From contig CAKULV010000002.1 in NCBI GenBank assembly GCA_934667425.1, positions 6,278-70,277 on the forward strand: a stretch of DNA of 64,000 nucleotides, given 5' to 3'. Position 1 is the first letter of the stretch. Each line of letters starts with the position of its first letter. Both the position numbers and the translations under genes were made by a program. Positions 12,150-52,349 of the stretch are shown one piece after another. The notes below the pieces were generated by a model. It was given only the letters and a program-made list of their open reading frames with translations. It was not told the DNA's origin and did not search any database. Origin of the DNA: an uncultured Kiritimatiellota bacterium. GTDB taxonomy: Bacteria > Verrucomicrobiota > Kiritimatiellia > RFP12 > UBA1067.

Positions 12150-12299
12150 CTGAAATGGCCGGACAAACCTCAAGCGAAGGACAGGGAGGTTGAATTTGCG
12201 GTTTTCCGATTTGTGGCTGGGATTGCGTCTTGGAATCTTATGATTGTTTGATTTGTATATGTTTTTGTTGAAAATGGGGAGGTGTGCGGAAACGTGGTG

Positions 12300-12308
12300 T
12301 GCTACAAT
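12300..12308 (+). promoter_or_regulatory. extended -10 TGcTACAAT, 8 nt upstream of the uxuA-like ATG (leaderless candidate)
   Basis: Read directly. No Shine-Dalgarno sequence can fit between it and the ATG at 12317. Confidence 0.4.
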
Positions 12309-12316
12309 ACATCCCC

Positions 12317-13318
12317 ATGAAACACGTTGAGTTTGTTCCACCGCGACAGCATCCGCTTTGGAGGCTTTGCCTTCAAATGGGGATTACGGATGTTGTCGTA
12401 AAGGTGAATCCGGCTTTGACGGGGCTTGAGGATCCGTGGAGGATGTCGACTTTGCGCTCTATCGTTGATGGGTTGGCATCCAATGGATTGCGTGTTGTCG
12501 GACTTGAAGGTGACCCGTTTGACATGTCTCCAGTGAAGCGGTATGGCGAAGCTGGCTTTATGCCGGAGATGCGCGACGAGGCGTTGGCGCACTATCGCGA
12601 ACTGATAGAGTCGATGTCCAACCTCGGCATTCGCCTGCTCTGCTACAATTTCATGGTTGGGCCAGGCTGGTCGCGTACTGGTGTGCGCACCGTGCGCGGC
12701 GGAGCTCTTGCAACCTATTTCAGCAAAGCCGAATATGAGGCGGCGTTTGGTCGATCTTGCGGCCTCATCCTTGATCGGGATCAAATATGGTCTAACTACG
12801 AATGCTTTGTCAAGGCGGTGATGCCGACGGCCGAGAGGGTTGGTGTGCGGATGGGGCTTCATCCTGATGATCCGTGCCTGCCGGAGCTTGGCGGCTATGC
12901 GCGAATCTTTGGAACGATAGACGATTATGACAGGGCGTACGCGCTTTATCCAAGCACTTCGAATTCTGTCACATACTGTCAGGCGAACTTCAAGCTCATG
13001 GGTGTAGACCTCATCGAAACTGCGAGGCATTTCGGCAAGCGCATCGCCTTTATACATGTGCGAGATGTAGAGGGCGACAAAACCGACTTCACCGAGCTGT
13101 TCCACGACCAGGGGTCGACCGATCAGTTTGCGCTCATGCGCACTTATCGTGAACTTGGGCTTGACGTTCCCGTTCGTGGCGACCATGTGCCTGAGATGTC
13201 AGGCGATAGGCTCTTTGCGGAAGATTGCGTCCCCGGCTATTTTACGTTGGGACGGTTGTTCGCCAACGGATATCTAAAAGCGCTATTGAAAGGAACAGAA
13301 AATGCCATCACTCGCTAA
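12317..13318 (+). CDS. uxuA: mannonate dehydratase (UxuA)-like TIM-barrel enzyme
   Basis: GLHPDDPCLPELGGYARIFGTIDDYDRAY...SVTYCQANF resembles the UxuA motif HPDDPP...G.PRI. The start was chosen at MKHVEF. The alternative GTG at 12284 has a poorly spaced RBS. Confidence 0.6.
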   Translation: MKHVEFVPPRQHPLWRLCLQMGITDVVVKVNPALTGLEDPWRMSTLRSIVDGLASNGLRVVGLEGDPFDMSPVKRYGEAGFMPEMRDEALAHYRELIESMSNLGIRLLCYNFMVGPGWSRTGVRTVRGGALATYFSKAEYEAAFGRSCGLILDRDQIWSNYECFVKAVMPTAERVGVRMGLHPDDPCLPELGGYARIFGTIDDYDRAYALYPSTSNSVTYCQANFKLMGVDLIETARHFGKRIAFIHVRDVEGDKTDFTELFHDQGSTDQFALMRTYRELGLDVPVRGDHVPEMSGDRLFAEDCVPGYFTLGRLFANGYLKALLKGTENAITR

Positions 13319-14057
13319 CATGCGCACGAAGGCCAAGGAAGCCGGCCTCATGAAGCTCGACAGGCTGATCGCCAAGCGTCAGCACATCCCCACCAACGAC
13401 TTCCCGATTCCGACGAAGGAGCTCTGCGAGCGCTTCGAGAAGCTCTACACGGGCTGCGTGAACGACGTCATGCGCGAGCTCACGCTCCTCGACCAGAACC
13501 TGCCGCACGAGATCATGCCGCTCCGGGACGAGATGGTCGTCTGCGGCGAGGCGTTCACGGTCAAGTCCGCGCCGAACTGCATGATCGAGGGCGAGATGAC
13601 GTTCCGTGCGCAGATGCTGGACGACTTCAAGCCGAACGGCGTCGTCGTGTGGGACACGTCGAACGACGTCGAGGCCTCGCTCTGGGGCGGCGTCATGACG
13701 GCGACGGCGATCTCGAAGGGGATTCGCGGCGCGGTCATCGCCGGCGGCATCCGCGACACGAAGCAGATCCTGGGGCAGCCGTTCCCGGTCTTCTACAAGT
13801 ACCGCGTCTCGAACGGCTCGCTCGGCCGCTGCATGATCACGCACTACCAGGTGCCGGTCAAGATCGGCAAGGTGACGGTGCGCCCCGGCGACATCATCAT
13901 GGGCGACATCGACGGCGTCATCTGCATCCCGCGCGAGATCGCCTACGAGGTGCTGCTGCGTGCCGAGGGCATCGAGCGCAACGAGGTGGACATCTTCTCG
14001 TGGGTGCGCCAGGGCGACACGATCTCGGAGATCATCGACAAGGGCGGGTACTTCTGA
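13302..14057 (+). CDS. RraA / 4-hydroxy-4-methyl-2-oxoglutarate aldolase family protein
   Basis: GEAFTVKSAP...SLWGGVMTATAISKGIRGAVIAGGIRDTKQI is an RraA-fold signature. The alternative start is the ATG at 13320. Confidence 0.7.
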   Translation: MPSLANMRTKAKEAGLMKLDRLIAKRQHIPTNDFPIPTKELCERFEKLYTGCVNDVMRELTLLDQNLPHEIMPLRDEMVVCGEAFTVKSAPNCMIEGEMTFRAQMLDDFKPNGVVVWDTSNDVEASLWGGVMTATAISKGIRGAVIAGGIRDTKQILGQPFPVFYKYRVSNGSLGRCMITHYQVPVKIGKVTVRPGDIIMGDIDGVICIPREIAYEVLLRAEGIERNEVDIFSWVRQGDTISEIIDKGGYF

Positions 14058-14809
14058 TGCTGAAGGACAGGTTTGACCTTCGGGGAAAGACTGCGCTTGT
14101 GACGGGTTCAGCTCGTGGTATAGGCAGAGGCATAGCACTTGCCTACGCCGAGTATGGAGCGAGGGTCATTGTTCATGGCACGAAGTCTTCTCCATGGCTT
14201 GATGAAACGTTGGCCGAAGTCCGGAAACTCAGCCCAGAATCGACATCTGCCTTAGCGGACTTGTCAAAGCCGGATGAGGTCGAGGCGTTGCCGGTCGACA
14301 CCGTTGATATACTCGTCAGTAACGTTTCCGTGCAGGAACGTATGCCGTGGCATGAATTTGACGTCGCCGAAGCGCATCGTGAAATGGAAATCAACTTTTA
14401 CTCCACGATGAGGCTCTTCCAAAAGGTGTATCCGCATATGCGCGATTCTCGGTGGGGGCGAATGATTGTCGTCGGTTCCGTTCAGGAAAGGCGGCCGCAT
14501 CCCATGATGTGTGCCTATGCCGCATCAAAGGGGGCTTTGGAGAACCTTGTCCGCAACATTGCGCGACAGGTCGCGGCTGAGGGCATAACGGTCAACAACC
14601 TATGCCCTGGCGTGTTCCTGACAGATAGGAACAGGGATGCACTCATGAACCGAGAGTATGCGAAGCAGGTGCTGGACACCATTCCGATGCATGACTATGC
14701 TATGCCTGAGGATGCGGCCGGTGCGGCTCTCCTGCTGGCATCTGATGCGGGGCGGTACATCACTGGCTCGACCATACTGATTGATGGCGGGCTATCCCTG
14801 CCGGGCTGA
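14057..14809 (+). CDS. SDR family oxidoreductase (KduD / gluconate 5-dehydrogenase-like)
   Basis: The start shares a base with the upstream stop. GKTALVTGSARGIGRGIA (TGxxxGxG), YAASKGALENL (YxxxK) and PGVFLTD are present. Confidence 0.85.
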   Translation: MLKDRFDLRGKTALVTGSARGIGRGIALAYAEYGARVIVHGTKSSPWLDETLAEVRKLSPESTSALADLSKPDEVEALPVDTVDILVSNVSVQERMPWHEFDVAEAHREMEINFYSTMRLFQKVYPHMRDSRWGRMIVVGSVQERRPHPMMCAYAASKGALENLVRNIARQVAAEGITVNNLCPGVFLTDRNRDALMNREYAKQVLDTIPMHDYAMPEDAAGAALLLASDAGRYITGSTILIDGGLSLPG

Positions 14810-14816
14810 TTGCGGC

Positions 14817-15809
14817 ATGGTTGCCTACGTAGGATGCTACACGGATGACATGAATCCCAATGGGATCCATGTCGTAGATGTAGATCCATTCACTGGCGGA
14901 ATGAGGCTCCTGTCGTCCGTTCGGTTGCAGAACGCCATCTATCAGGCCATTACGCCCGACGAACGGTTTCTGGTGTCGTGCGAACGGGGTGGGCTCGCGG
15001 CATTCCGCATCGTTGGCGATAGCCTTGTCCAGTCGGATCGGCTTCCATTGGGGGGACAATGCATCTGCCATGTCTCCGTAATGCCGGACGGGAGACGCAT
15101 ATGTTGGGCAGACTATCTCGCCGGCGAAGCCGGGAGCGTAGGCTTTGAGGAAGGACTGTTCGAGAAAGACAGCCTGAAGCGCCACCGCCACGACGGGTGC
15201 GGGCCGAATCTTCCGCGTCAGGCGACCGCCCACTGCCATCAGGCGATTCCATTGCCGGATGGTTCGGGCTATGTTGTGGTTGACCTTGGTCTGGATAGGC
15301 TCTCGGTGTATCCTCAGGGGCGGCATTGCCGAACGCTTCCTGCGGGGGCTGGCCCTCGGCATTTGGCGTTTCATCCAAACGGACGTTTCGCCTTTGTGGT
15401 TTCCGAACTTGGCAATCTGCTGTCTGTGTACCGCATGGCGGAAGATTGCGTCTTTTCGTTTCAGTCTTCAGTGTCGACACTTCCCGATGGATGGTCTGGT
15501 GCATCTGCCGCCGCAGCGGTTCGCGTGTCAGCGGATGGTTCGAGGGTGTTCGTGTCAAATCGCGGACATGACTCTATTGCGGCTTTTGGGTTTGACCGAG
15601 CATCAGGGGGGCTTGAGGCGTTGTCTTTCTCCCCGTTGCCGGGGGAGGTGCCGCGAGACTTTGTTCTGCTTCCCGGCGACCGTATGGCTCTTGCGGTACT
15701 TGAACAATCTGGATCGCTTGTATCTCTAAACTGCGATGCCGCCACTGGGCGGCTCATATCGCTCTGTCGCATTGATGGCCTTTGTCGCCCGTCTTCAGTC
15801 ATCGTCTGA
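14817..15809 (+). CDS. 7-bladed beta-propeller lactonase (6-phosphogluconolactonase family)
   Basis: VGCYTDD...GIHVVDVD and HLAFHPNGRFAFVVSELGNLLSVY, together with repeated blade-like segments. Confidence 0.65.
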   Translation: MVAYVGCYTDDMNPNGIHVVDVDPFTGGMRLLSSVRLQNAIYQAITPDERFLVSCERGGLAAFRIVGDSLVQSDRLPLGGQCICHVSVMPDGRRICWADYLAGEAGSVGFEEGLFEKDSLKRHRHDGCGPNLPRQATAHCHQAIPLPDGSGYVVVDLGLDRLSVYPQGRHCRTLPAGAGPRHLAFHPNGRFAFVVSELGNLLSVYRMAEDCVFSFQSSVSTLPDGWSGASAAAAVRVSADGSRVFVSNRGHDSIAAFGFDRASGGLEALSFSPLPGEVPRDFVLLPGDRMALAVLEQSGSLVSLNCDAATGRLISLCRIDGLCRPSSVIV

Positions 15810-16991
15810 AACACCGTGTTTCCGATGGGTCTGCCGATAGCTGCGCATGGAACATCCGTAAACAGACTTGAATGCCTCATTCAGTCGGCAGAGCTTCGAG
15901 AAGTGGCAGTCGCTGGCGATGTTCTCTATCGTGTCCTTTGTCTCAAGCAGACGCTTGCGGACCTCCATTAGGCGATATCGCTTGATGGTGTCGCCGATCG
16001 ATTCTCCCTGTAGTTCGCGGAATCGCAGGTCGGCAAGGCTTCGCGACGTTTTCAGGTGTGTTGCGACGTCACGTGGCTTGATGGCTTCGGACGCATGGGC
16101 CCGGATGAATGCGATTGCTCGCTGGACGAGGCGTCCCGAACATGATACGAGGCTTGTGGATTCCCGTACGATGATTTCCTTGATGCCAACGCGAATGTGT
16201 TCGGGGGTATGTCGCGTATTCCCGTCCATCATGCTGGAGAGCCGTTCGGCAGCAAGATACCCCATCCTGTCGTGGTCTGGCTGGATGGATGTGAGTGTCG
16301 GCATCGTGTTGGTGCAGAGCATTTCATCGTTGTCTACGCCGATGACGGCGACATCGGTTGGGATAGGAATATCGGCCTCATGGCAAGCCTCAACCACCTG
16401 TAGCGCACGATCGTCGAACGCGGCGAAGAGTCCGGCGGGCTTTGGAAGCCGTGCGATCCATTTCGCGAGGTGGGGCAGGTCGTATCCCTTTCCGCGCGTC
16501 GTGTAGCGGTGAACGGGAAGGCCATTCGCCTTCAGTTCGTCAATAAAGGCCTCCCCGCGCAGTTTTCCCCATGTATTCCCTTGCAGATCAGCCACAAATC
16601 CGTATGATCTGAAAAGGCCCTGCGACATCAGGTTTTGTGCGGCGGCTCTGCCGACTTCCCTCGCATCGCCCAAGATGTATACTATATTCTTGGTTCTGCC
16701 GGATAGCAGATCATCATCGTATATGTCGAGTGCGACCGTTGGTATGCTTAGCGTGGCGAGCTCGGCTGCGCCATCCTTTGCCGCCGGCATGGAGTAGACT
16801 ATCCCGTCAATGTTCCTCTCGCTAAAAGATGCGACGAGTTCCCTTGAGAAGTCTTCGCGTATTCGCGTGAATTGGGGCCGCCAGTCGAGTTCATGTTCGT
16901 TAATGTAGCGAAGGAATCCTCCGAACTTGCGGCGACCCGGTTCGCCAGCGAGGTGAAAGGCGACGGCAATGCGCTTGAAAGGCTGCGTCAT
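15795..16991 (-). CDS. XylR-like regulator: sugar-binding (LacI/PBP-like) domain fused to an AraC-type HTH
   Basis: The N-terminal part is a periplasmic-binding-protein fold. The C-terminal part reads HLKTSRSLADLRFRE...IASDCHFSKLCRLNEAFKSVYGCSMRSYR, an AraC HTH. Confidence 0.8.
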   Translation of the reverse strand: MTQPFKRIAVAFHLAGEPGRRKFGGFLRYINEHELDWRPQFTRIREDFSRELVASFSERNIDGIVYSMPAAKDGAAELATLSIPTVALDIYDDDLLSGRTKNIVYILGDAREVGRAAAQNLMSQGLFRSYGFVADLQGNTWGKLRGEAFIDELKANGLPVHRYTTRGKGYDLPHLAKWIARLPKPAGLFAAFDDRALQVVEACHEADIPIPTDVAVIGVDNDEMLCTNTMPTLTSIQPDHDRMGYLAAERLSSMMDGNTRHTPEHIRVGIKEIIVRESTSLVSCSGRLVQRAIAFIRAHASEAIKPRDVATHLKTSRSLADLRFRELQGESIGDTIKRYRLMEVRKRLLETKDTIENIASDCHFSKLCRLNEAFKSVYGCSMRSYRQTHRKHGVSDDD

Positions 16992-17147
16992 GGCGTTTGG
17001 CTCGATCCATTTACTTCATTTCTCATATGCGGACATTATACCAAACTGCGACGCAAATCGGCGCGACGCTTGCGGGACATCAATTTTCGTGTTATTCAAA
17101 ATGGAAGAATGATTGTTGAAAGTGGGATTCATTGCCGATTCGTTCTT

Positions 17148-17156
17148 TTGATATAA
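17148..17156 (+). promoter_or_regulatory. extended -10 TGaTATAAT upstream of the 865-aa secreted protein gene
   Basis: Read directly, in the divergent region shared with the XylR-like regulator. Confidence 0.45.
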
Positions 17157-17207
17157 TCGCCCCCGCAAGGCTGGGAGTGCGAAAACGAAAAAGAAAGGCT
17201 TTTAGGC

Positions 17208-19805
17208 ATGAATACTCTTATCAAGATGTTTTTTTTGGTGATGGCGGCACAGTTGGCCACAGTTTGCCGTGCGGATGTCGTGACGCTGAATCGGGCGGAC
17301 AGGGATGGGTCCGCAGCCGAGGGCGAGTCTTCCTTCATGAGCTCCTTCCTGTCCAACCCAGGTGAAGAGGGGTATGGCTGGTCGGACGGGTGTGACCCCA
17401 GTTCAGATAAAGACTATTTGGTTGTCGGCAACAATGTTGCTCTTCGCACGCCCTATCGCGAAGATTCCGATCTTGCTTCGCAGACATTTGTCTTTCCGGG
17501 GCGTTCTCTAACCTTGGACAATGGCGGGATAATCGCGTTTCGCTCAAGCTATGGCACGGCTGACAATGCGGCGACCGTTCAGATTGACGACTTGATCGTC
17601 AAAAAAGGCGTTCTCAGCCACGCCTATTGGGCGCGTGCTACGAAATGGGGCGGCAAGATCACGATTGACACCGCTTCGGCGGCAAATGGATCCGCGAGCT
17701 TCACCATCAACATGTCGACATGCCACATCTTGGCGAAGATGGTTGCCGCCGTAGGCGAGAGGGTCACGCTTGAAGGCTCCACAATGGCGCAGCTGAACAG
17801 TGCCGGGGACTATCGGTGGATGGATATGGCGCATCCCTACGTATTCCGTTTTTCCGGCGACTGTACGGAATACTGGGCGACGACCGCCTGTGCTTGGGGC
17901 TCGCAGGCTTGGATCGCGACGACGGACTTTGCCGGCTCCTTCAGTTTGGGGAACGCGGGTCTGGTCACGGTTGACGGCGTTTCGTCCGCCACGGTTAGAG
18001 GCATGATAGCGAGCCGCGATGGCCTCGTGCGCATTCCCGCCGCAACGACTCTGGATGTCTGCGGTGGAATCGATTCTGCGTTTGCGGATTACTCGACACA
18101 TGTCTGTCAAGGCACAAACGTGTACACGCGACAGGAAGCAGATGTGCCTTACGTGAACGTGAATGACGTCTCTGGCGGTTCTGTCGGCAAGTCTATCTCC
18201 GTCAACGCGCTCGTCATTGCGGAAGATGGTGCGCTATCCACGCCCAAGGCCAATCTGGACGGCACACTTGTCAGTCTTTCCTCTGGAGCGATGTTTACGG
18301 TGGGGGATGCTGATTTTACGGATGTCATCCTTGATGTGGCAGGTGACGGAAAACTCGTTGTTACGAACTCCTTCACGACGCACTCGCCCGTCAAGCTCCG
18401 TCTGAATGGGGTCACGGCGCAGAGAGCGGCGCTGGTGACTATGTCAACATCGTGCGGCGAACTGAAAGTGGACGATTTCACGTTCGTCGCGCCGCAGTTC
18501 CAATACATCCTGTCAGTCGAGGCGAAAAACGGCGTTCAGACGCTGTGGGCCGATAACCTAAATCCTGCAGCCAAGGATGCGATGTCCGGCTACGTCATCC
18601 TTGAGAACCCCGACGGCAACTCTCAGGCTACGTTTACCTACGGCTCATACAATCAGGCGGGCGGCTGGTCGGACGGACTGGCGCCGCATGCGGATGCCCA
18701 TTACTGCACAAACGGAAAGCTACTGCGTGACAAGGAACTCGGCACAGATGTTGCCTTCAAGGGGGCTTCCCTGACGCAATGCGGCACGTTCCGTCCAGAA
18801 GCGAATTCGTTTTCCATTGCGGACTGGCGGGTCGTGTCTAATGGCGGGACGAAGATCGACAACCGTACGATGCTGAACGTATCCGGCGCGTATTCCGCTA
18901 AGACATTCGGCGGATTTCTGAGGGTATTCACAGACGCGGCTTCTCCGTTCACGCTTTATGGCGGAATCACTAAGTTTTTCGAGGACGGCTCGTTTCAGAG
19001 CCAGACATACCGGATGGTAACGAAGGTCGTAGGGTCTGCAGAGGCCGTGATCGCGGCGGAAGGTGCTCTCTCCCGTGTACCCGGCGACAGGGAAGGTCGG
19101 GCCGTCTGCGAATTTTTGGGTGACATGGACGAATACTATGGTTCAATCTGGGTTGGAACGAATCAGACGGTCATTCTCGGAAACACGGGCCTCGCGAACG
19201 GAACGCTTGTTTTGCGCACGGCCTGGTCGATGGGCACGACAAGGGCTGACGCCGGAACGTCCGTACCCGTCCGGCGCCTTGAAACCCATGCCTCGGCCAC
19301 GCTTGACGTCCCCGAAGCGACGACGCTGGCGGTCAAGGAGGGTACGGCAATCGTGGGTACGTTGACCAAGAATGGCTTGGGCACGTTGGCGCTCTCTGGC
19401 ATGGCGACGCCAGGCGAAGAGGCTGGGATTCGTGTCGCTGCCGGGACGCTGAAGGTTTCTTCGGCGACGGCGTTGTCTGGTGTGTCCGTCGCGTTTGCGG
19501 ATGGGGCCGGCCTGGTCATGGACTGGGGTATCGAAGACGGAATCTTCCTTGACAATGTGGTGTGTGAAGGCGCACGGCTTCCGATTGCCTTTGATTTCAC
19601 AGGTGACGTGCCAACATTTGAGGAGCCTTGCGTCAAGAAGCTGCTTACCGTAAGTGATTCGGATGCAAGGGCCATTTTGGACAAGGTTGTCGTTCGGCGG
19701 GTTAAGGGCTATTGCATTGACATGCTGCCGCCTGTCTCGGAAAATGGGCTGACGACATTCTCCGTGCGTGTCTACAGGCTCGGCTTCATCCTAACGGTTC
19801 GCTGA
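17208..19805 (+). CDS. large secreted protein with autotransporter-associated beta-strand repeat (PATR-like) segment
   Basis: Signal peptide MNTLIKMFFLVMAAQLATVCRA. LTKNGLGTLALSG...GIRVAAGTLKV matches the PATR consensus. The protein ends ...RLGFILTVR. Confidence 0.7.
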   Translation: MNTLIKMFFLVMAAQLATVCRADVVTLNRADRDGSAAEGESSFMSSFLSNPGEEGYGWSDGCDPSSDKDYLVVGNNVALRTPYREDSDLASQTFVFPGRSLTLDNGGIIAFRSSYGTADNAATVQIDDLIVKKGVLSHAYWARATKWGGKITIDTASAANGSASFTINMSTCHILAKMVAAVGERVTLEGSTMAQLNSAGDYRWMDMAHPYVFRFSGDCTEYWATTACAWGSQAWIATTDFAGSFSLGNAGLVTVDGVSSATVRGMIASRDGLVRIPAATTLDVCGGIDSAFADYSTHVCQGTNVYTRQEADVPYVNVNDVSGGSVGKSISVNALVIAEDGALSTPKANLDGTLVSLSSGAMFTVGDADFTDVILDVAGDGKLVVTNSFTTHSPVKLRLNGVTAQRAALVTMSTSCGELKVDDFTFVAPQFQYILSVEAKNGVQTLWADNLNPAAKDAMSGYVILENPDGNSQATFTYGSYNQAGGWSDGLAPHADAHYCTNGKLLRDKELGTDVAFKGASLTQCGTFRPEANSFSIADWRVVSNGGTKIDNRTMLNVSGAYSAKTFGGFLRVFTDAASPFTLYGGITKFFEDGSFQSQTYRMVTKVVGSAEAVIAAEGALSRVPGDREGRAVCEFLGDMDEYYGSIWVGTNQTVILGNTGLANGTLVLRTAWSMGTTRADAGTSVPVRRLETHASATLDVPEATTLAVKEGTAIVGTLTKNGLGTLALSGMATPGEEAGIRVAAGTLKVSSATALSGVSVAFADGAGLVMDWGIEDGIFLDNVVCEGARLPIAFDFTGDVPTFEEPCVKKLLTVSDSDARAILDKVVVRRVKGYCIDMLPPVSENGLTTFSVRVYRLGFILTVR

Positions 19806-19810
19806 GGAAA

Positions 19811-22800
19811 ATGGTGATGAGCTTGAGAAGATGTTGTGTCCTTGTTGCCGCAATTGGAGCGTTCGCGTTCTCTTCAGAGGGGAATGCTCAGGCCGTGGCA
19901 CCGCAATGTCCCGAACGTGTCAGGGAGATCGCCGCGTGGCTGCGTCCGGAGGCGGGGTTTGACGAGACGCGAATCTCGAATCGCGAGGTTTGGGACAAAG
20001 AGGCCAGGACAAAACAGGCTTTGCTAATCATCGGACGTGCGGAACGGTTCCTCAAAGAGAAGCTTGTGGTCTCAAATGACGCGAAATACGAGGAAGTCTA
20101 CGCCTGGGCGCGTCCTCTCGGTAGGATCGCAAACGACTGGCTTCCTGCGCTGACGTATGCCGAGTGCCTTGAAAACAAGGGGCGGTTCCTTCCTCGCATC
20201 GTCTCGATCCTTGATGTGCTTTCGTCCATGCGCACATGGGTCAACCCATATCATGACAGGCCTGATTTCGGTTCATTCAATGGCCTTTACAGGAAGCTTG
20301 AACTCGGCAACGGCAACATTTCCCAGCATATTGCCCTCACACTGGATCTGTTGCGAGACGTGCTTCCGGCGGACTGCCGTGCCCGCGCCTTGGCAGCGTT
20401 GCGGCGACAGGTACTGGATGTCTACCTTGAGATAGCCAAAGACTGGAAGGCGGCCCGGAGGAACCGTTGCTGGTTCTATGACAGCCAGATCAACTGGTGC
20501 GCGGCCTGCAACGAGTATTTTGCAGTCTCATCCCTCCTTGTCTTGGACGACCCGATCGAACGCGCGACGGCAATCGAGTTGGCCGAACGTTCGACAAAAT
20601 GCTATTTAGACGGCTTTACGGCAGACGGAATGAGCCTTGAGGGGGTTGGATATTGGAGCTATGGGTTCGGCCAATACCTTCGGCTGGGAATCATGGCGCG
20701 ACGCGCAACTGACGGGCGGGTCGATTTCTTTTCGGCGCCACGTGTCAAGGCGTGTGCGCGATCCGGCTTCGACACGTACTACAACGACAACGGCGCACCT
20801 GCCTACGGAGACTGTAAGATTGGCTTGAATTGCGATGCCACGTGGTATCTGGCCGGGCTTGTCTGGCCTGAATTCGCCACGGAGAAGGCGAGTCGGGCGT
20901 CTGAAGCATCCTGGAACCTGCCGTTGGCGACGATTCGGCTCTTTCCGACTGTGGGCAGTGCGACAGGGGCTGGACGCGAGTCGCGCACCTATCCTATCCG
21001 TTCCTGGTACCCTGACGTGGTGCAGCAGTTGGTGTGCCGTCCGCAACCGGAAACGGCCGACTCGAAAAGCCTATATGCGTCGTTCCGTGGCGGATGCAAT
21101 GACCCGAAGAAGATCGGAGGGCACAACCACAATGATGTTGGCACGTTCGGGCTGGCGATCGACGGGCGCGAAATCGTGGGAGACCCTGGCATTAAGGAGT
21201 ATGACCTCAAGACGTTCGGCCCGCATCGCTACGAGAGTAACCTTCGCAACTCGTACGGGCATCCGGTGCCGTTGGTGGACGGGCAGATGCAGCTTGTCGG
21301 AAAGGTTGGCGCCAGACTCCTGAGAAGTTCGTTTTCCGATGCGAAGGACTTGGTGCAGCTCGATTTGCGCGATGTCTATGCGGTCACGAACCTGATGGGC
21401 TTGACGCGGACTTTTGTCTATCTGCGTGATGAGGAGAAGGTCATGATTCGCGACGAGATCGCCTTTGATGGCACTGGCACGTATGAGACGCCTATCGTCA
21501 CCTATGGAACGGTCAGCCCTTTGGGTGCAGGGGTGTTCAGGGTGACGTCGCGGGACGGCAAGGATTCGCTTGTTTGCCGTGTGCGCGTGATCGGCGGCAC
21601 GTTGACGACGCGAGAAGAGGCACTTGAGGCTCCGGCGAAAGGCAAACCCGCGCCGAAACGTTTTGCGTTGGCGTTCGCGGCACCCGTCAGTATGGCTACA
21701 CTGGAGATGACATGGGAGAAGTTTGTGCCTGAACGCACGGTATACCCGATGCTGACGCGGGATGGACGGCGTCTGACGAGCTGGACTGATGGGACTAACA
21801 CCGTCTACGACCTTGTCCCGACGAACCGTCTGCCAAACGGCGGCGGCCCGATGCGCGAATGGAAACTCTACTGCCTCAAGGCGACGCACACGGATGTCGG
21901 CCTCCACAATTCGCAGTACATCCAACGGCACGGAACCGTGCAGCGAATCGAGAACGCGGCGCGGCTCATCGATGCCGACACGCGCAGGGACGACGATCCT
22001 GCCGCCTACCGCTATGTCCTGGAAGGCACATGGTTTTGGGAGAACTATCCGATGGATCGCGGCGAGGCCGCCGCGTGGCGCATTGTCACGAACTACATGG
22101 CACGTGGCCGCATGGACGTGGGCGTTACGTGCGCGGGCAACCATACCCACGTCTTTTCGAAAGCAGAGTTGGAGCGGTCGGCGTACGCGAAGCGGCGGCT
22201 GGAGGAGAAGTGGGGAATCAAGACCCGTACGTTCATCATGGCCGACAATCCAGGCATCAGCTGTTCGGTCATCGAGCCGTATGCGCAGGCTGGCATCCGC
22301 CATGGGATATTTCTCCCCAACCAGTGGAATCCGCATCCATCGTCGATCTGGAAGCGAAATCCCGACATCATGGCCGGCACCTGGAATCCGGATGCCGGGG
22401 GCGGAGGCGCACGTGTGGATGTCTCGTTCGATTCTTCGTTGCCGATGGTCTTCCGCTGGATGGCTCCAGGCGGGACGAATTCCCTGCTGATGTGGTGTTC
22501 GACCCAGTATCACTACGGCTACTCGCGACTGGGCATCGCCCATGGGCGGCGTGACCGTTCGAACGTGCGGGATGTTGAGAAACGGATGCCGGAATTCCTC
22601 GCGTTGCTGGAATCGAAGTACCCGTACGACATTTGGCTCGCGGGCAACTACTCCGACGATGAGGACGCGAATGCGGTGTTCGCGGACTTCGCCGCAGAAT
22701 GGAACCGCAAGTGGGCGTGGCCGCAGTTCCGCACTGTCGGCCGACTGGACGAGCCGTTTGAATATCTTGAGAAGCGTTTCGGGTCACAGATACCGATCAT

Positions 22801-25003
22801 TCGCGGCGAAATGACGAGCGGCTGGCTGCAGCATGTGGCCTCCGCGCCGGAGCTGCTGGCGGACAAGTTGAACGTCGATCGGCTTCTGGAGACGGCGGAA
22901 CGGCTTGGGGCATATGCTGGGACAATCGATCCGGTCGCGGTGGCGCGCGCCTGGAAGATGCTCATCCTCAACGACGAGCATTCCTACGGCACGAGCGGCT
23001 ATCAGGGGCGACGCGTGTTCGAGACGTGGATGCAGAAGCGGGATTGGATCGAACGTGCGGCTGCGACGGCATCAAATGAACTCACGAAGGCTGTGGCGAG
23101 ACTGGGACTTGCACCGAAGGACGAGAGTCGCGTTGAAGTGTTTCCGGGCTCGACACGGGAAAACGCATTCTATCGCGTTACGGTCAACAAGAAGGGCGAA
23201 ATCGTCTCGCTCTTTGACAAGGCGCTTGGACGGGAACTGCTGTCGAGTCCGGCCAACCGCTTCCTCTACACGCGCGACAACCATAAGAGCTGGTGCGACG
23301 AGAATCTTCTTGGGGCAACCATTACGCGGCGCGTGTTCCTGCCAAGCGATGTGCGGCGAGTGGACATTGAAGACCGCTTCGAACACGCGAAGGATATGTT
23401 CAATGCCCACAGGTATAACCGGTTTGGATACTTGGCGTTCCCGTTCAACGTTCCGAAGGGCACCTTCAAGGCTCGGTTGGCGGGTGGCGAGATGATCCAT
23501 CCATACGAGGACTGCCATCCCTTTGTTTCGGATGCCTACGTGGCCGTGCGTGACTGGTGTGCCGTGGAGAACGACGACTTCGGCGTTGCGCTGATGATGC
23601 GCGACTCCATGCTGACGGAGTTTGGCGAAATCCACCCGGACAAGACCTGCTACACGGGTCGATCTCCCAAGGGAACGACCTCCATCTATCCGTTCCTGTT
23701 TACGGATTGGTTGCAGATGCATCAGCCTGACGGCGATTCCATGAACTTCACGTTCCGTTTCTCGATTACGTCGTATGCGTTCAGTGAACGGTATCGCGTC
23801 GAAGAGGTGTGTGCCGACTGGCTCGATACTTACGCCAAGTGGATGCGCGAGCAGAAGGTGCCGTCTGCAGGGCGTGTGGCCTGCGGCATGGCGGCAGATG
23901 GCTGGACAGGGCTTATTGAGGCGCCACGTGCAGGCCATGGCGAGAAGGACGGCCAACTTTATCTTTTGTGGGGCGCGGAGCTCGCTCCGGGATTCTCGCA
24001 TTACGAGCTATGGCGTGATGGGGCGTTCCGCGCCAATGTGACGAATGAGGCGCCGCAAGGCATCCCATATCGCGTGGCCCGTTTCGAGGACACGGGCCTG
24101 CCAACGCATTCGACACACGCATACCGTCTCTTCAAGGTCTGGAAGGACGGACGCAAGGAGCCATTTGGCGGGACGTTTTCAGGGCGGACTCGCTTCGTCA
24201 GCGAAGAGGAGCGCAATGGCGTTGTCTGCGAAGGCGAAGACGGACGCTTGGCGATTCGGTTCGACGGTGCGCAGGTGACAAGCTGGAATCCCGAAGCGAT
24301 GAAGGGCGAGGACGTGTTCTTCCTGCCGAAGGACACGCCGTGGGGGCAGGAGGTTCATGGTGGACTGCCGATTTGCTGGCCATGGTTTGGAAAGCCTGAG
24401 AAGGAGGGACTTCCGAAACATGGACTTGTGCGCTACCTTCGCTGGAATATTGTACGGCGCAACGGCAAGAACGGTGTCGTCCTGCGGACTCGATCAAATA
24501 TGGAGACGCGGAAACTGTGGCCTCACGACTTTGAACTTGAGGCCCATATTGGGATTGTCGATGCTTCTGCGCTGAAAATCACGATCATAGAGCGCAACAC
24601 TGGTACGAATCGGTTCGAGTCGGCGTGTGCGATCCATCCGTATTTCTCCATGTCCGATGCGACGAACGTGGAACTTGACGGTACACGATTGCCGCGTCCG
24701 TGGACGCAACGGACATTTGGCGCGAACGGCAAGCCGCACGTGCTGGGCGATGGTGTGCGTCGGCGTCGCGTGGAGGTCTCATCCCCGCAAGCGACACGTT
24801 GGATGGTGTGGAATCCGGGCGAGGAGCGGACACCGCTGTGCAATGGGCTGCAAGCGGACGATTGGCGACGCTTTTATTGCCTTGAGCCTATTGCGGATCA
24901 ATCCAATCCGCTGAATCCGGGGAAAAGCCGCCGATACGACTTCACGATTCGCGTACTGTCGGCGCCAACCGTAGAGGATGGTCGGACTCGGCAGACGAAA
25001 TGA
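19811..25003 (+). CDS. 1730-aa secreted multidomain enzyme: heparinase II/III-like lyase fold + GH38-like alpha-mannosidase + Fn3-like + aldose/hexose-6-P 1-epimerase-like domain
   Basis: A single uninterrupted ORF with RBS GAGGA and a signal peptide. GGHNHNDVGTFGLAIDGREIVGDPG is heparinase II/III-like. KATHTDVGLH, MADNPG and LNDEHSYGTSG are GH38 metal/nucleophile-like motifs. GGLPICWPWFG...LPKHGLVRYLRW is YeaD-like mutarotase. Confidence 0.8.
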   Translation: MVMSLRRCCVLVAAIGAFAFSSEGNAQAVAPQCPERVREIAAWLRPEAGFDETRISNREVWDKEARTKQALLIIGRAERFLKEKLVVSNDAKYEEVYAWARPLGRIANDWLPALTYAECLENKGRFLPRIVSILDVLSSMRTWVNPYHDRPDFGSFNGLYRKLELGNGNISQHIALTLDLLRDVLPADCRARALAALRRQVLDVYLEIAKDWKAARRNRCWFYDSQINWCAACNEYFAVSSLLVLDDPIERATAIELAERSTKCYLDGFTADGMSLEGVGYWSYGFGQYLRLGIMARRATDGRVDFFSAPRVKACARSGFDTYYNDNGAPAYGDCKIGLNCDATWYLAGLVWPEFATEKASRASEASWNLPLATIRLFPTVGSATGAGRESRTYPIRSWYPDVVQQLVCRPQPETADSKSLYASFRGGCNDPKKIGGHNHNDVGTFGLAIDGREIVGDPGIKEYDLKTFGPHRYESNLRNSYGHPVPLVDGQMQLVGKVGARLLRSSFSDAKDLVQLDLRDVYAVTNLMGLTRTFVYLRDEEKVMIRDEIAFDGTGTYETPIVTYGTVSPLGAGVFRVTSRDGKDSLVCRVRVIGGTLTTREEALEAPAKGKPAPKRFALAFAAPVSMATLEMTWEKFVPERTVYPMLTRDGRRLTSWTDGTNTVYDLVPTNRLPNGGGPMREWKLYCLKATHTDVGLHNSQYIQRHGTVQRIENAARLIDADTRRDDDPAAYRYVLEGTWFWENYPMDRGEAAAWRIVTNYMARGRMDVGVTCAGNHTHVFSKAELERSAYAKRRLEEKWGIKTRTFIMADNPGISCSVIEPYAQAGIRHGIFLPNQWNPHPSSIWKRNPDIMAGTWNPDAGGGGARVDVSFDSSLPMVFRWMAPGGTNSLLMWCSTQYHYGYSRLGIAHGRRDRSNVRDVEKRMPEFLALLESKYPYDIWLAGNYSDDEDANAVFADFAAEWNRKWAWPQFRTVGRLDEPFEYLEKRFGSQIPIIRGEMTSGWLQHVASAPELLADKLNVDRLLETAERLGAYAGTIDPVAVARAWKMLILNDEHSYGTSGYQGRRVFETWMQKRDWIERAAATASNELTKAVARLGLAPKDESRVEVFPGSTRENAFYRVTVNKKGEIVSLFDKALGRELLSSPANRFLYTRDNHKSWCDENLLGATITRRVFLPSDVRRVDIEDRFEHAKDMFNAHRYNRFGYLAFPFNVPKGTFKARLAGGEMIHPYEDCHPFVSDAYVAVRDWCAVENDDFGVALMMRDSMLTEFGEIHPDKTCYTGRSPKGTTSIYPFLFTDWLQMHQPDGDSMNFTFRFSITSYAFSERYRVEEVCADWLDTYAKWMREQKVPSAGRVACGMAADGWTGLIEAPRAGHGEKDGQLYLLWGAELAPGFSHYELWRDGAFRANVTNEAPQGIPYRVARFEDTGLPTHSTHAYRLFKVWKDGRKEPFGGTFSGRTRFVSEEERNGVVCEGEDGRLAIRFDGAQVTSWNPEAMKGEDVFFLPKDTPWGQEVHGGLPICWPWFGKPEKEGLPKHGLVRYLRWNIVRRNGKNGVVLRTRSNMETRKLWPHDFELEAHIGIVDASALKITIIERNTGTNRFESACAIHPYFSMSDATNVELDGTRLPRPWTQRTFGANGKPHVLGDGVRRRRVEVSSPQATRWMVWNPGEERTPLCNGLQADDWRRFYCLEPIADQSNPLNPGKSRRYDFTIRVLSAPTVEDGRTRQTK

Positions 25004-25027
25004 GGTCGGGTCCAGATCCCTTTGCCG

Positions 25028-28928: not shown

Positions 28929-28932
28929 GTCT

Positions 28933-44709: not shown

Positions 44710-44783
44710 GGCCGAGATTATATCAGAATTGGCGAAAGCGGTATGCCCCCCGAAAGTGGGGCTTGTTTGCGTTGAAGGTGGCG

Positions 44784-44792
44784 TGGTAAAAT
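44784..44792 (+). promoter_or_regulatory. extended -10 TGgTAAAAT, 8 nt upstream of the lipoprotein ATG (leaderless candidate)
   Basis: Read directly, in the divergent region shared with the histidine kinase. Confidence 0.4.
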
Positions 44793-44800
44793 CATGCGCC

Positions 44801-49299: not shown

Positions 49300-49328
49300 A
49301 AACAAACAAAAAGGAATCGAGGCAAATC

Positions 49329-51914: not shown

Positions 51915-51916
51915 AA

Positions 51917-52030
51917 GATGGTAGTTGGTAGATGGTAGTTGGTAGGTTTTAGGGAATTTGCGATTTGCGATTTGCGATTGCATTTGGCCATTTAGGTATT
52001 TGATTCTACCCACTACCAACTACCATCTAC
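51917..52030. repeat. modular intergenic repeat, copy D (full)
   Basis: Perfect 18-bp inverted repeat: GTAGATGGTAGTTGGTAG (51928-51945) with CTACCAACTACCATCTAC (52013-52030). It flanks the core TTTTAGGGAATTTGCGATTTGCGATTTGCGATTGCATTTGGCCATTTAGGTATTTGATT. Confidence 0.9.
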
Positions 52031-52062
52031 GATTACATTGAGCCATTTGAGGATTTGCCGTG

Positions 52063-52337: not shown

Positions 52338-52349
52338 TTGCCTGATTTG

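What the first reader, a model, noticed from the sequence alone, without database searches (positions are those of the whole stretch)
19811..25003. 1730-aa secreted fusion of lyase-fold, GH38-like and mutarotase-like domains
One uninterrupted ORF encodes the following. A signal peptide comes first. A heparinase II/III-like module runs to about nt 21730 and contains GGHNHNDVGTFGLAIDGREIVGDPG. A GH38-like module spans about 21850-23900, with an HxD-type KATHTDVG, MADNPG and LNDEHSYGTSG. An Fn3-like segment spans about 23940-24200. A YeaD/aldose-1-epimerase-like domain spans about 24220-24960, with GGLPICWPWFG and LPKHGLVRYLRW. I do not recall seeing a polysaccharide-lyase fold, an alpha-mannosidase fold and an anomer-converting domain combined in one exported polypeptide. 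It could process a mannose- and uronate-containing glycan processively and hand over a defined anomer.
Basis: partly seen in the sequence, partly recalled or inferred. Interest (0 to 1): 0.65.

Follow-up and report, generated by a model that had tools for sequence, protein, structure and literature searches.

The report
Fused lyase–mannosidase–mutarotase secreted enzyme
A gut bacterium (class Kiritimatiellia) has fused two neighbouring sugar-degrading genes into one 1730-residue exported enzyme, made of a uronic-acid lyase module, an alpha-mannosidase-like module and a sugar-anomer-converting module; the three-way fusion is rare, but its mannosidase–mutarotase half is a common and unstudied enzyme type.

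Summary
ORF 19811-25003 is uninterrupted (1730 aa) and all quoted motifs sit at the stated coordinates.

The modules are:
- a signal peptide;
- a PL33-like (alpha/alpha)6-toroid plus beta-sandwich lyase module, with the PL33 catalytic Asn/Tyr/His/Tyr conserved;
- a divergent GH38-fold module with an invariant His/Asp/Asp/His metal site, nucleophile Asp and acid/base Asp;
- an Ig/Fn3-like spacer;
- a YeaD-type aldose-1-epimerase domain with its His/His/Glu triad.

The ORF is intact in four independent assemblies, and every module is under purifying selection (dN/dS 0.06-0.31).

The three-way fusion is rare: three protein clusters, all from animal-gut Kiritimatiellia. GH38-like–Ig–mutarotase proteins are common (51 of the 120 best clusters) and mostly exported. 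In one relative, a separate PL-like gene lies directly upstream of such a gene, so the window ORF is a fusion of adjacent genes.

The locus also conserves an AraC/PBP regulator, an unknown ~870-aa exported protein, and a cytoplasmic SDR, lactonase, UxuA-like dehydratase and RraA-like aldolase.

The likely substrate is a glucuronate- and alpha-mannose-containing glycan, such as a xanthan-like side chain or glucuronomannan. This is inferred, not shown.

Verdict: a new variant of a known kind, of moderate interest.

The parts
19811..25003 (+). Whole 1730-aa ORF including the stop codon: an exported PL33-like – GH38-like – Ig/Fn3 – YeaD-like fusion protein.
   Evidence: Orthologous uninterrupted ORFs in L004, L005, L031 and L032.
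19811..19888 (+). Sec-type signal peptide, aa 1-26 (MVMSLRRCCVLVAAIGAFAFSSEGNA|QA).
   Evidence: Sequence read directly. pLDDT is below 50 for residues 1-26. No predictor was run.
19889..21715 (+). PL33-like polysaccharide-lyase module, aa 27-635. It has an (alpha/alpha)6 toroid (about aa 34-376) and an antiparallel beta-sandwich (about aa 397-637). Candidate catalytic residues are N228 (nt 20492), Y281 (nt 20651), H438 (nt 21122) and Y464 (nt 21200). Candidate structural-metal residues are H440, D458 and H484.
   Evidence: Pfam Hepar_II_III_C at 29 bits. PDB sequence hits to PL33 structures 8r73, 8r75, 8r6z and 8r70, E 3e-21 to 3e-17. Model pLDDT 87. Foldseek best hit is BtPL33HA, E 5e-28, TM 0.67-0.74. 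The catalytic residues are invariant in 25 homologues. Residue roles are from PMC11848413.
21716..21739 (+). Fusion linker, aa 636-643 (EKFVPERT). It replaces the stop codon, the intergenic gap and the signal peptide seen in the two-gene arrangement.
   Evidence: L029 reads ...VTVTWFAK* / MVTSGLAILAALT-VYPMLTQDGRR, while the window reads ...LEMTW-EKFVPERT-VYPMLTRDGRR.
21740..23920 (+). Divergent GH38-fold glycoside-hydrolase module, aa 644-1370. Metal and catalytic candidates are H693 (nt 21887), D695 (nt 21893), D812 as nucleophile (nt 22244), D949 as acid/base (nt 22655) and H1057 (nt 22979).
   Evidence: Model pLDDT 89. The Foldseek hits covering this module are all GH38 alpha-mannosidases (7ufr, 6lz1, 2wyh, 5kbp and others), E about 1e-22. 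A family profile hits GH38 PDB sequences at E 3e-44, with the residues aligned. The residues are invariant in 64 and in 55 sequences, except D949, which is nearly invariant in the 55-sequence set.
23921..24205 (+). Ig/Fn3-like beta-sandwich spacer, aa 1371-1465.
   Evidence: The model is all-beta here. Weak profile hits to FnIII domains (1k85 at E 0.0026, 2w1n at 0.0046). No Pfam hit. The spacer follows the GH38-like module in nearly all homologues.
24206..24955 (+). YeaD-type (glucose-6-phosphate-1-epimerase-like) aldose 1-epimerase domain, aa 1466-1715. The catalytic triad candidates are H1537 (nt 24419), H1609 (nt 24635) and E1692 (nt 24884). The motif HGG (H1516) stands where solved YeaD-family structures have RGG.
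   Evidence: Pfam PF01263 at 68.4 bits against a cut-off of 27. PDB 2hta at E 1.4e-25 with the single sequence and 1.7e-32 with the profile, full length. Foldseek TMt 0.72-0.76 to 2hta and 2ciq. The triad is conserved in 43-47 of about 48 homologues.
17208..19805 (+). Conserved operon partner: an exported 865-aa protein of unknown family, ending 5 nt before the start codon of the fusion ORF.
   Evidence: No Pfam, NCBIfam or PDB match. Homologues lie next to GH38-like–mutarotase genes in L004, L028, L029, L031 and L032. It has a signal peptide.
15795..16991 (-). Divergently transcribed regulator with a periplasmic-binding-protein-like sugar sensor and an AraC-type HTH.
   Evidence: Pfam Peripla_BP_3 plus HTH_18. 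The same regulator type is next to homologous loci L002, L004, L008, L021, L029, L030 and L031.
12284..15809 (+). Cytoplasmic sugar-acid catabolic genes: UxuA-like dehydratase (12284-13318), RraA-like aldolase (13302-14057), SDR (14054-14809) and a 7-bladed lactonase (14781-15809).
   Evidence: Pfam and NCBIfam family-level hits. No signal peptides. These genes recur next to GH38-like–mutarotase genes in L001, L003, L004, L021, L028, L029 and L031.
11136..12149 (+). Exported Phytase-like (PF13449) beta-propeller protein. Homologues of it occur as the C-terminal domain of four GH38-like proteins, in the position of the mutarotase domain.
   Evidence: Pfam E 2.3e-46. Signal peptide. GH38-Ig-Phytase-like architecture in 4 of 120 clusters.

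Best explanation
The ORF encodes one exported, three-activity carbohydrate-active enzyme of an animal-gut Kiritimatiellia bacterium. It arose when a stand-alone PL33-like lyase gene fused with the GH38-like–Ig–mutarotase gene immediately downstream of it. In the fusion, an 8-residue linker replaces the stop codon, the intergenic gap and the second signal peptide.

Proposed mechanism:
1. The N-terminal module cleaves a sugar-(1->4)-glucuronate linkage by beta-elimination. Tyr281 acts as base and acid, activated by His438, and Asn228 stabilises the enolate. This is inferred from conserved residues.
2. After the unsaturated uronate is removed by a separate enzyme (GH88 in relatives), the metal-dependent retaining GH38-like module removes the exposed alpha-mannosyl-type residue, with Asp812 as nucleophile and Asp949 as acid/base. 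This is also inferred from conserved residues.
3. The C-terminal YeaD-like domain speeds up alpha/beta interconversion of the released reducing sugar in the periplasm. Uptake and the cytoplasmic SDR/lactonase/UxuA-like/RraA-like route are then not limited by spontaneous mutarotation. This step is the least certain.

The most likely substrate class is a glucuronate- and alpha-mannose-containing glycan, such as a xanthan-like side chain or a glucuronomannan. That is an inference from context only.
For: Architecture and integrity. Intact orthologues with full synteny. Purifying selection on every module, dN/dS 0.06-0.31.

Lyase module:
- Sequence hits to PL33 structures, E about 1e-21.
- Foldseek best hit BtPL33HA, TM about 0.7.
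- The PL33 catalytic N238/Y291/H444/Y470 (PMC11848413) align to N228/Y281/H438/Y464, which are invariant in 25 homologues.
- The same module is fused to GH88, which acts on lyase products, in P0012 and P0020 (P0019-P0024 carry precomputed GH88).

GH38-like module:
- GH38 fold.
- Profile E 3e-44 to GH38 structures, with H/D, nucleophile D, acid/base D and H aligned.
- These residues are invariant, except D949, which is nearly invariant across the distant set.

Mutarotase domain:
- PF01263 at 68 bits.
- Full-length match to YeaD.
- TM about 0.75.
- The His/His/Glu triad is conserved; the roles of the triad are from PMC5902678.

Gene-fusion origin: in L029 the two genes are adjacent and separate.

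Context: the conserved regulator, the unknown exported partner and the sugar-acid genes. Precedents are the lyase -> GH88 -> GH38 order in xanthan degradation (PMC10881899) and an SDR -> lactone -> UxuA-family dehydratase -> aldolase route for mannose in Thermoplasma acidophilum (PMC6901390).
Against: - No activity is shown for any module.
- The GH38-like module does not reach Pfam's GH38N threshold. The query has no hit, and P0003 scores 20.5 bits against a cut-off of 25. It is only about 12% identical to solved GH38 enzymes, so its sugar specificity could differ.
- The window contains no GH88 or GH105 to remove the unsaturated uronate.
- The catabolic genes match only at family level, below NCBIfam cut-offs. 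They fit glucuronate catabolism as well as oxidative mannose catabolism.
- The mutarotase domain is exported while the putative dehydrogenase is cytoplasmic, so the benefit of fusing it is unclear.
- One characterised mutarotase of this superfamily (HsSQM) does not act on mannose (PMC5902678).
Confidence: 0.6

Rival explanations
1. The C-terminal YeaD-like domain is not a working mutarotase. It serves as a sugar-binding (CBM-like) module or a structural module that anchors the enzyme to the reducing end of the substrate or to the product.
For: - Galactose-mutarotase-like beta-sandwiches are common non-catalytic parts of glycosidases (own knowledge).
- In 4 of 120 homologues the same position holds a Phytase-like propeller, and 62 of 120 have nothing there, so the domain is dispensable for the GH38-like activity.
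- The Arg of the RGG motif seen in all three solved YeaD-family structures is His here.
Against: - The His/His/Glu catalytic triad is kept in 43-47 of about 48 homologues.
- dN/dS is 0.15-0.31.
- The closest free-standing relatives (P0169, P0170, P0172; 45-51% identity) are small exported proteins with the same motifs, as expected of enzymes.
Confidence: 0.2
2. The GH38-like module is a real glycosidase but not an alpha-mannosidase. This divergent clade targets another glycoside, so the glycan need not contain mannose.
For: - About 12% identity to solved GH38 enzymes.
- Below the Pfam GH38N threshold.
- The motifs differ from the canonical ones: DxPG against DxFG, and DEHxYG against HDxxxG.
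- Neighbouring genes in other loci include GH78, GH29, GH20, GH5 and GH36-like enzymes.
Against: - All characterised GH38 activities are on alpha-mannosides (own knowledge of CAZy).
- The metal site, which in GH38 binds mannose O2/O3 (own knowledge), is intact.
- UxuA-family (mannonate dehydratase-like) genes recur next to these genes.
Confidence: 0.25
3. The N-terminal module is not a lyase. It is a uronyl C5-epimerase, or a binding domain, built on the same fold.
For: The PL33 paper notes that the fold and the catalytic apparatus are shared with the human dermatan-sulfate epimerase DS-epi1 (PMC11848413). DS-epi1 (6hzn) is among the Foldseek hits, E 3e-14.
Against: - The best sequence and structure matches are all lyases: PL33, then PL35, PL15 and PL17.
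- Relatives of the module are fused to GH88, which only acts on unsaturated lyase products.
- All four PL33 catalytic residues are invariant.
Confidence: 0.1
4. The long ORF is an assembly or frameshift artefact that joins two real genes.
For: In L029 the two halves are separate adjacent genes.
Against: - The fused ORF is intact in four independent assemblies at 93%, 93%, 91% and 56% identity.
- The junction has lost the second signal peptide and gained a clean 8-residue linker that is conserved in L004.
- Purifying selection acts across the whole length.
Confidence: 0.02

Closest known systems
Polysaccharide lyase family 33 (for example BtPL33HA / BT4410; PDB 8R6Z, 8R70, 8R75)
   Same: [quoted passage not shown] The best sequence match (E about 1e-21) and the best structure match (TM about 0.7). 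Conserved Asn/Tyr/His/Tyr catalytic set and the His/Asp/His structural-metal motif.
   Different: Only 17-25% identity. Here the module is one part of a 1730-aa fusion, and in relatives it is joined to GH29, GH88, GH2, GH27 or DUF6259. The substrate is unknown; characterised PL33 enzymes act on hyaluronan, heparosan, chondroitin sulfate or gellan. CAZy family assignment was not tested.
GH38 alpha-mannosidases (for example S. pyogenes SpGH38 2WYH, B. longum Bl_Man38A 7UFR, yeast Ams1 6LZ1)
   Same: The overall multi-domain GH38 fold. The His-x-Asp, nucleophile Asp, acid/base Asp and His positions align and are invariant, except the acid/base Asp949, which is nearly invariant in the distant set.
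   Different: About 12% identity. Below Pfam's GH38N threshold. Altered motifs (DxPG, DEHxYG). Exported. Followed by an Ig/Fn3 spacer and, in about 40% of relatives, a YeaD-type mutarotase domain.
YeaD / YMR099c hexose-6-phosphate mutarotase subfamily of aldose 1-epimerases (PDB 2HTA, 2CIQ, 1JOV)
   Same: A full-length sequence match (E 1.7e-32 with the profile), the fold (TM about 0.75) and the His/His/Glu catalytic residues.
   Different: Exported rather than cytoplasmic. Covalently attached to a glycosidase. The Arg of the RGG motif is His in 45 of 48 family members. From memory of Graille et al. 2006, which I could not read here, that Arg helps bind the 6-phosphate. A phosphate sugar is therefore unlikely to be the substrate.
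Xanthan side-chain degradation systems (PL8 xanthan lyase, then GH88, then GH38, as separate enzymes; PMC10881899)
   Same: The same logic: a lyase acting at a 4-linked glucuronate, followed by an alpha-mannosidase of the GH38 fold, in gut and soil bacteria.
   Different: In those systems the enzymes are separate, the lyase is PL8 (a different family), the GH38 is often intracellular and no mutarotase is involved. No link of the present locus to xanthan has been shown.
NanM (YjhT) periplasmic sialic-acid mutarotase, and the Gal10 epimerase–mutarotase fusion (own knowledge, not checked here)
   Same: Precedents for two ideas used here: an exported mutarotase that speeds use of a sugar just released by a glycosidase, and a mutarotase domain fused to another sugar enzyme.
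   Different: NanM is a Kelch beta-propeller and is free-standing. Gal10 is cytoplasmic and is fused to a UDP-galactose 4-epimerase, not to a glycosidase.

Membership tests
PL33 (polysaccharide lyase family 33) | (alpha/alpha)6 toroid plus antiparallel beta-sandwich two-domain fold | tested here: met
   AlphaFold model with pLDDT 87. Foldseek best hits are 8r70, 8r71, 8r6z, 8r73 and 8r75, E about 1e-27, TM 0.66-0.74.
PL33 (polysaccharide lyase family 33) | Catalytic Asn238/Tyr291/His444 and the capping Tyr470 (BtPL33HA numbering) | tested here: met
   The HMMER alignment maps them to N228/Y281/H438/Y464. All four are invariant in 25 homologues. Roles are from PMC11848413.
PL33 (polysaccharide lyase family 33) | Sequence membership as CAZy would assign it (family HMM or BLAST to curated members) | not testable with these tools
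   No dbCAN or CAZy library is available. PL33 structures are the best PDB sequence hits (77.6 bits, E 3e-21), ahead of PL35 (34 bits). At 17-25% identity the module could be a distant PL33 subfamily or a sister family.
PL33 (polysaccharide lyase family 33) | Beta-eliminative cleavage at a 4-linked glucuronate | not testable with these tools
   Indirect support only: fusions of the same module to GH88.
GH38 (glycoside hydrolase family 38) | GH38 multi-domain fold: N-terminal catalytic barrel, helical bundle and C-terminal beta-domains | tested here: met
   Model pLDDT 89. Ranks 1-14 of the Foldseek list are all GH38 structures, E 3e-22 to 5e-19.
GH38 (glycoside hydrolase family 38) | Metal-binding His/Asp/Asp/His, nucleophile Asp and acid/base Asp | tested here: met
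   The profile-to-Ams1 alignment places H693/D695, D812, D949 and H1057 on the GH38 positions. H693, D695, D812 and H1057 are invariant in both the 64- and the 55-sequence alignments. D949 is invariant in the 64 and nearly invariant across the distant set.
GH38 (glycoside hydrolase family 38) | Match to the curated family model (Pfam PF01074 GH38N, gathering score 25) | tested here: not met
   The query has no PF01074 hit at E<=1, and GH38C scores 22.3 bits against a cut-off of 25. The orthologue P0003 scores 20.5 bits. A profile of the query's own clade plus distant relatives does reach GH38 structures at E 3e-44.
GH38 (glycoside hydrolase family 38) | Alpha-mannosidase activity | not testable with these tools
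   Needs an enzyme assay.
Aldose 1-epimerase, YeaD / glucose-6-phosphate 1-epimerase subfamily | Match to PF01263 above the gathering score | tested here: met
   68.4 bits against a cut-off of 27. The profile match to 2hta covers residues 42-297 of 309.
Aldose 1-epimerase, YeaD / glucose-6-phosphate 1-epimerase subfamily | Mutarotase beta-sandwich fold | tested here: met
   Foldseek hits 2hta, 2htb and 2ciq with TMt 0.72-0.76, rmsd about 3 A, 22-28% identity.
Aldose 1-epimerase, YeaD / glucose-6-phosphate 1-epimerase subfamily | Conserved His/His/Glu catalytic residues | tested here: met
   H1537, H1609 and E1692 are present. They are conserved in 46, 47 and 43 of about 48 homologues respectively. 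Roles are from PMC5902678.
Aldose 1-epimerase, YeaD / glucose-6-phosphate 1-epimerase subfamily | Cytoplasmic enzyme acting on hexose 6-phosphates (RGG motif) | tested here: not met
   The protein and most family members carry signal peptides. RGG is HGG in 45 of 48 members. The phosphate-binding role of that Arg is recalled from memory, not verified.
Fibronectin type III / Ig-like domain | Sequence or fold match for aa 1371-1465 | tested here: inconclusive
   All-beta in the model. Weak profile hits to FnIII domains, E 0.003-0.5. No Pfam hit.

The most novel reading that the evidence does not exclude
The GH38-like–Ig–YeaD-like proteins, of which this fusion is an extended member, would form an unrecognised class of exported bifunctional glycosidase–mutarotases. 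The HGG-type mutarotase domain would be catalytically active outside the cytoplasm on the sugar just released (mannose, or a C6-anionic sugar such as a uronate). It would feed a bacterial non-phosphorylative oxidative hexose route (SDR dehydrogenase, lactonase, UxuA-like dehydratase, RraA-like aldolase), which so far has been proposed only for the archaeon Thermoplasma acidophilum.
Probability: 0.2. Interest if true: 0.7.

Novelty: new variant of a known kind. Interest (0 to 1): 0.5.

Why it matters
Kiritimatiellia are abundant but poorly characterised glycan degraders in animal guts. This locus shows how they build multi-activity enzymes by shuffling a small set of modules: PL33-like, GH38-like, GH88, GH29, GH2, DUF6259, a Phytase-like propeller and a YeaD-like mutarotase.

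The gene fusion gives "Rosetta-stone" evidence that three unannotated families act on the same glycan: the divergent PL33-like clade, the divergent GH38-like clade and an exported mutarotase clade.

If the mutarotase domain is active, it would be, to my knowledge, the first glycosidase covalently coupled to an anomer-equilibrating activity outside the cytoplasm. It would also provide a defined enzyme set for breaking down acidic mannose-containing gums.

Tried and rejected
- NCBIfam gave no hit for the fusion protein or for the 865-aa partner.
- Pfam, even at E<=10, and a PDB sequence search gave nothing credible for the 865-aa partner. Both structure-prediction jobs went to the fusion protein, so the partner's fold stays unknown.
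- A single-sequence PDB search found no GH38 hit for the middle module. Only a profile that included distant relatives did.
- The promoter and terminator scan of 15700-25200 found fewer sites than shuffled controls, so nothing can be said about transcription units.
- The exact protein is not on record in the assembly collection.
- Literature searches found no relevant paper on DUF6259, on GH38 plus mutarotase, or on alpha-mannosidase plus aldose 1-epimerase fusions.
- The Graille 2006 paper on YMR099c could not be read, so the role of the RGG arginine rests on memory.
- The SDR has only generic sugar or gluconate dehydrogenase-like PDB hits, which do not separate a mannose 1-dehydrogenase from a mannonate or KDG oxidoreductase.
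- I could not test whether the xanthan-induced Thermogutta GH38 (THTE_2605) belongs to this clade.
- A marine fucoidan or fucoglucuronomannan substrate was considered. It is less likely because every close relative comes from animal-gut samples.
Full report
**1. The observation**

The window carries one uninterrupted ORF at 19811-25003 on the + strand, 1730 aa with an ATG start. The N-terminus, MVMSLRRCCVLVAAIGAFAFSSEGNA|QA, has the n-, h- and c-regions of a Sec signal peptide. This was read by eye, and the region has low model confidence.

Pfam finds three families:
- Aldose_epim at aa 1486-1624, 68.4 bits against a cut-off of 27.
- Hepar_II_III_C at aa 422-561, 29.1 bits against a cut-off of 24.
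- A sub-threshold Glyco_hydro_38C hit at aa 1117-1162, 22.3 bits against a cut-off of 25.

NCBIfam finds nothing.

**2. The N-terminal module (aa 27-635)**

A PDB sequence search gives PL33 structures as the best matches: 8r73, 8r75, 8r6z and 8r70, with E from 3e-21 to 3e-17, covering aa 56-578. PL35 entries are much weaker. The AlphaFold model built with 25 homologues has pLDDT 87. It shows an all-helical domain followed by an all-beta domain. Foldseek ranks BtPL33HA first (E 5e-28, TM 0.67-0.74). PL35, PL15, PL17 and PL12 follow, and human dermatan-sulfate epimerase 1 is also among the hits.

The PL33 paper identifies N238, Y291 and H444 as the key catalytic residues, with Y470 capping the dyad (PMC11848413). 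The HMMER alignment maps these to N228, Y281, H438 and Y464. All four are invariant in the 25-sequence alignment, as is the metal-site-like H440/D458/H484 set.

Homologues of this module occur in many fusions:
- with GH29 (P0004);
- with DUF6259 (P0005-P0013);
- with DUF6259 and GH88 together (P0012);
- with NPCBM and a GH27-type alpha-galactosidase (P0016, P0017);
- with GH2 (P0018);
- with GH88 (P0019-P0024).

GH88 only acts on the unsaturated products of lyases. These fusions therefore argue that the module is a working lyase rather than an epimerase or a binding domain.

**3. The middle module (aa 644-1370)**

The single sequence finds no solved relative. It does have hundreds of metagenomic homologues: 371 clusters in the word-indexed search. 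In the exhaustive search, run with aa 640-1729 and so also counting stand-alone epimerase-like proteins, 3911 representatives reach E<=1e-3.

The AlphaFold model of aa 640-1730 has pLDDT 89 and pTM 0.83. Every Foldseek hit that covers this module is a GH38 alpha-mannosidase: Bl_Man38A/B/C, Ams1, SpGH38, the E. faecalis GH38, Golgi mannosidase II and jack-bean mannosidase. The E-values run from about 1e-22 to 1e-15 at only 9-13% identity.

A profile that adds distant relatives hits GH38 PDB sequences at E 3e-44. Its alignment to Ams1 pairs the following:
- SHxD of the family with HCHID of Ams1;
- TDvPG with PDTFG, the nucleophile motif;
- ysDn with GDGG, the acid/base motif;
- DEH with QFH.

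In the query these positions are H693, D695, D812, D949 and H1057. They are invariant in 64 close homologues. Across 55 sequences that include members at 20-25% identity they are invariant or nearly invariant.

The module is therefore a catalytically intact, divergent member of the GH38 fold. Its formal family status and its sugar specificity remain open.

**4. The spacer and the C-terminal domain**

Residues 1371-1465 are all-beta in the model. They give only weak FnIII hits and no Pfam hit.

Residues 1466-1715 match YeaD from Salmonella (2hta). The single sequence gives E 1.4e-25. The family profile gives 1.7e-32 over residues 42-297 of 309. The fold match has TM 0.72-0.76.

The conserved mutarotase residues are two His and one Glu (PMC5902678). 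Here they are H1537, H1609 and E1692, kept in 46, 47 and 43 of about 48 homologues that have the domain.

The RGG motif seen in all three solved YeaD-family proteins is HGG here, in 45 of 48 homologues. From memory, that Arg helps bind the 6-phosphate. I could not verify this.

The closest free-standing relatives (P0169, P0170, P0172; 45-51% identity) are proteins of about 285 aa with signal peptides and the same HGG motif. So there is an exported subfamily of YeaD-like proteins.

**5. How rare the architecture is**

The full PL–GH38–Ig–Epim order occurs in only three 90% clusters: P0001 (93% identity), P0002 (88%) and P0003 (56%, a horse-faeces Kiritimatiellia MAG).

Among the 120 best GH38-like clusters:
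- 51 are GH38–Ig–Epim;
- 62 are GH38–Ig, though some may be truncated by contig ends;
- 4 are GH38–Ig–Phytase-like.

By a crude hydrophobicity test, 94 of 118 have signal-peptide-like N-termini.

**6. Origin by gene fusion**

In contig L029, a 634-aa stand-alone PL-like gene lies at 16502-18406. It is 41% identical to the query module over 622 aa (E 1e-138). It ends 15 nt before a 1090-aa GH38–Ig–Epim gene that has its own short signal peptide.

The two junctions compare as follows:
- L029: ...VTVTWFAK* then MVTSGLAILAALT-VYPMLTQDGRR...
- Window...LEMTW-EKFVPERT-VYPMLTRDGRR...

The fusion therefore removed the stop codon, the spacer and the second signal peptide.

The fused ORF is intact in four other assemblies (L004, L005, L031, L032). 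L031 shows full synteny with the window. The dN/dS values are 0.15-0.17 for the PL module, 0.11-0.22 for GH38, 0.06-0.15 for Ig and 0.15-0.31 for Epim. No part is decaying, and a frameshift artefact is excluded.

**7. Genomic context**

Upstream, ending 5 nt before the start codon of the fusion ORF, lies an exported 865-aa protein with no family or structure match. Its homologues sit next to GH38–Ig–Epim genes in L004, L028, L029, L031 and L032.

Divergently transcribed is a regulator with a periplasmic-binding-protein-like domain and an AraC HTH. Similar regulators are found at L002, L008, L021, L029 and L030.

Further upstream are:
- an exported Phytase-like propeller (11136-12149);
- four proteins without signal peptides: a UxuA-like dehydratase, an RraA-like aldolase, an SDR and a 7-bladed lactonase.

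Subsets of these four recur beside the GH38-like gene in L001/L005 (lactonase), L003 (lactonase, UxuA), L021 (RraA, SDR), L028 (UxuA, RraA) and L029 (SDR, UxuA, DUF6259).

Downstream, on the other strand, are ClpC, McsB and McsA housekeeping genes. The glycan locus therefore ends at 25003.

**8. Mechanism**

Shown:
- the module identities;
- conservation of the catalytic residues;
- export of the protein;
- origin by fusion of adjacent genes;
- the conserved neighbourhood.

Inferred:
- The lyase cleaves at a 4-linked glucuronate, as all PL33 enzymes do.
- The GH38-like module removes an alpha-mannosyl-type residue with retention of configuration.
- The mutarotase domain equilibrates the anomers of the released reducing sugar.

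The order lyase, then GH88, then GH38 is exactly the known route for xanthan side chains, Man-beta1,4-GlcA-beta1,2-Man-alpha1,3- (PMC10881899; PMC5673643). Glucuronomannans of plant gums would fit as well (own knowledge).

The cytoplasmic gene set parallels the oxidative mannose route proposed for Thermoplasma acidophilum. That route runs from an SDR aldohexose dehydrogenase to the lactone, to mannonate, to a UxuA-family dehydratase, to KDG and then to an aldolase (PMC6901390). It could equally serve glucuronate catabolism through an SDR-type mannonate oxidoreductase plus UxuA. The data do not separate the two.

An exported mutarotase has a conceptual precedent in NanM (own knowledge). Why the mutarotase is fused to the glycosidase is not explained.

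**9. Verdict**

This is a new variant of a known kind, a multi-activity CAZyme made by fusing adjacent genes.

It is the widespread, undescribed, exported GH38-like–mutarotase architecture and its conserved link to a sugar-acid pathway.

Interest is 0.5.

Noticed in passing
window 13302-14057 (+): The RraA-like aldolase ORF matches PDB entry 5ir2, deposited as 'Cellulase' (222 aa), at E 9e-89. An RraA-fold protein named a cellulase looks like a questionable functional label. The close match suggests the crystallised protein could come from a related organism.
   Followed up: no
window 44000-52000, including ORFs 44630-47200, 47158-49299 and 49296-51914 (+): This stretch has clearly higher G+C (0.66-0.71, against about 0.60 elsewhere). 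It carries a DUF6259 protein (E 3e-53) flanked by two large ORFs (856 and 872 aa) with no family match. DUF6259 is fused to the same PL33-like module in P0005-P0013 and lies in the homologous locus L029. It is probably a further uncharacterised glycan-active family acting on the same substrate.
   Followed up: partly
window 11136-12149 (+); proteins P0097, P0099, P0102, P0104: The exported Phytase-like (PF13449) propeller of the window has homologues that form the C-terminal domain of four GH38-like proteins, in the position otherwise held by the mutarotase domain. This is a second Rosetta-stone link within the locus. Its function is unknown.
   Followed up: partly
window 24206-24955 compared with L031: Between the window and its 93% orthologue, the mutarotase segment has dS 0.046, while the other modules have 0.23-0.72. 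This suggests a recent recombination or gene-conversion event that covers only the 3' end of the gene.
   Followed up: no
L004 (CAVJWR010000018.1): A contig labelled Limosilactobacillus gorillae carries the whole locus (SDR, lactonase, regulator, 865-aa partner, fusion ORF) at 82-95% protein identity to the window. It is almost certainly a mis-binned Kiritimatiellia contig in a Lactobacillus bin.
   Followed up: no
window 17208-19805 (+): An 865-aa exported protein with no Pfam, NCBIfam or PDB match. It is restricted to Kiritimatiellia-like metagenome contigs (19 clusters) and always lies next to GH38-like/mutarotase genes. It may be a surface glycan-binding or glycan-capture protein.
   Followed up: partly
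window 52038-56749 (+): A GFO/IDH/MocA oxidoreductase with a TAT signal, a 3-keto-disaccharide-hydrolase (DUF1080) protein and an L-rhamnose isomerase lie in a row. A DUF1080 protein was proposed as an endo-xanthanase in Thermogutta. A GH95-like gene lies at 35833-37845. The region therefore holds several further glycan-use genes.
   Followed up: no
window 25028-29150 (-): A ClpC–McsB (arginine kinase)–McsA-like operon lies directly downstream and convergent. As far as I recall it is best known from Firmicutes. It is conserved in the orthologous contigs L031 and L032.
   Followed up: no
proteins P0169, P0170, P0172: These free-standing YeaD-like proteins of about 285 aa have signal peptides and the HGG variant of the RGG motif. 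They point to an exported mutarotase subfamily distinct from the cytoplasmic hexose-6-phosphate mutarotases.
   Followed up: partly
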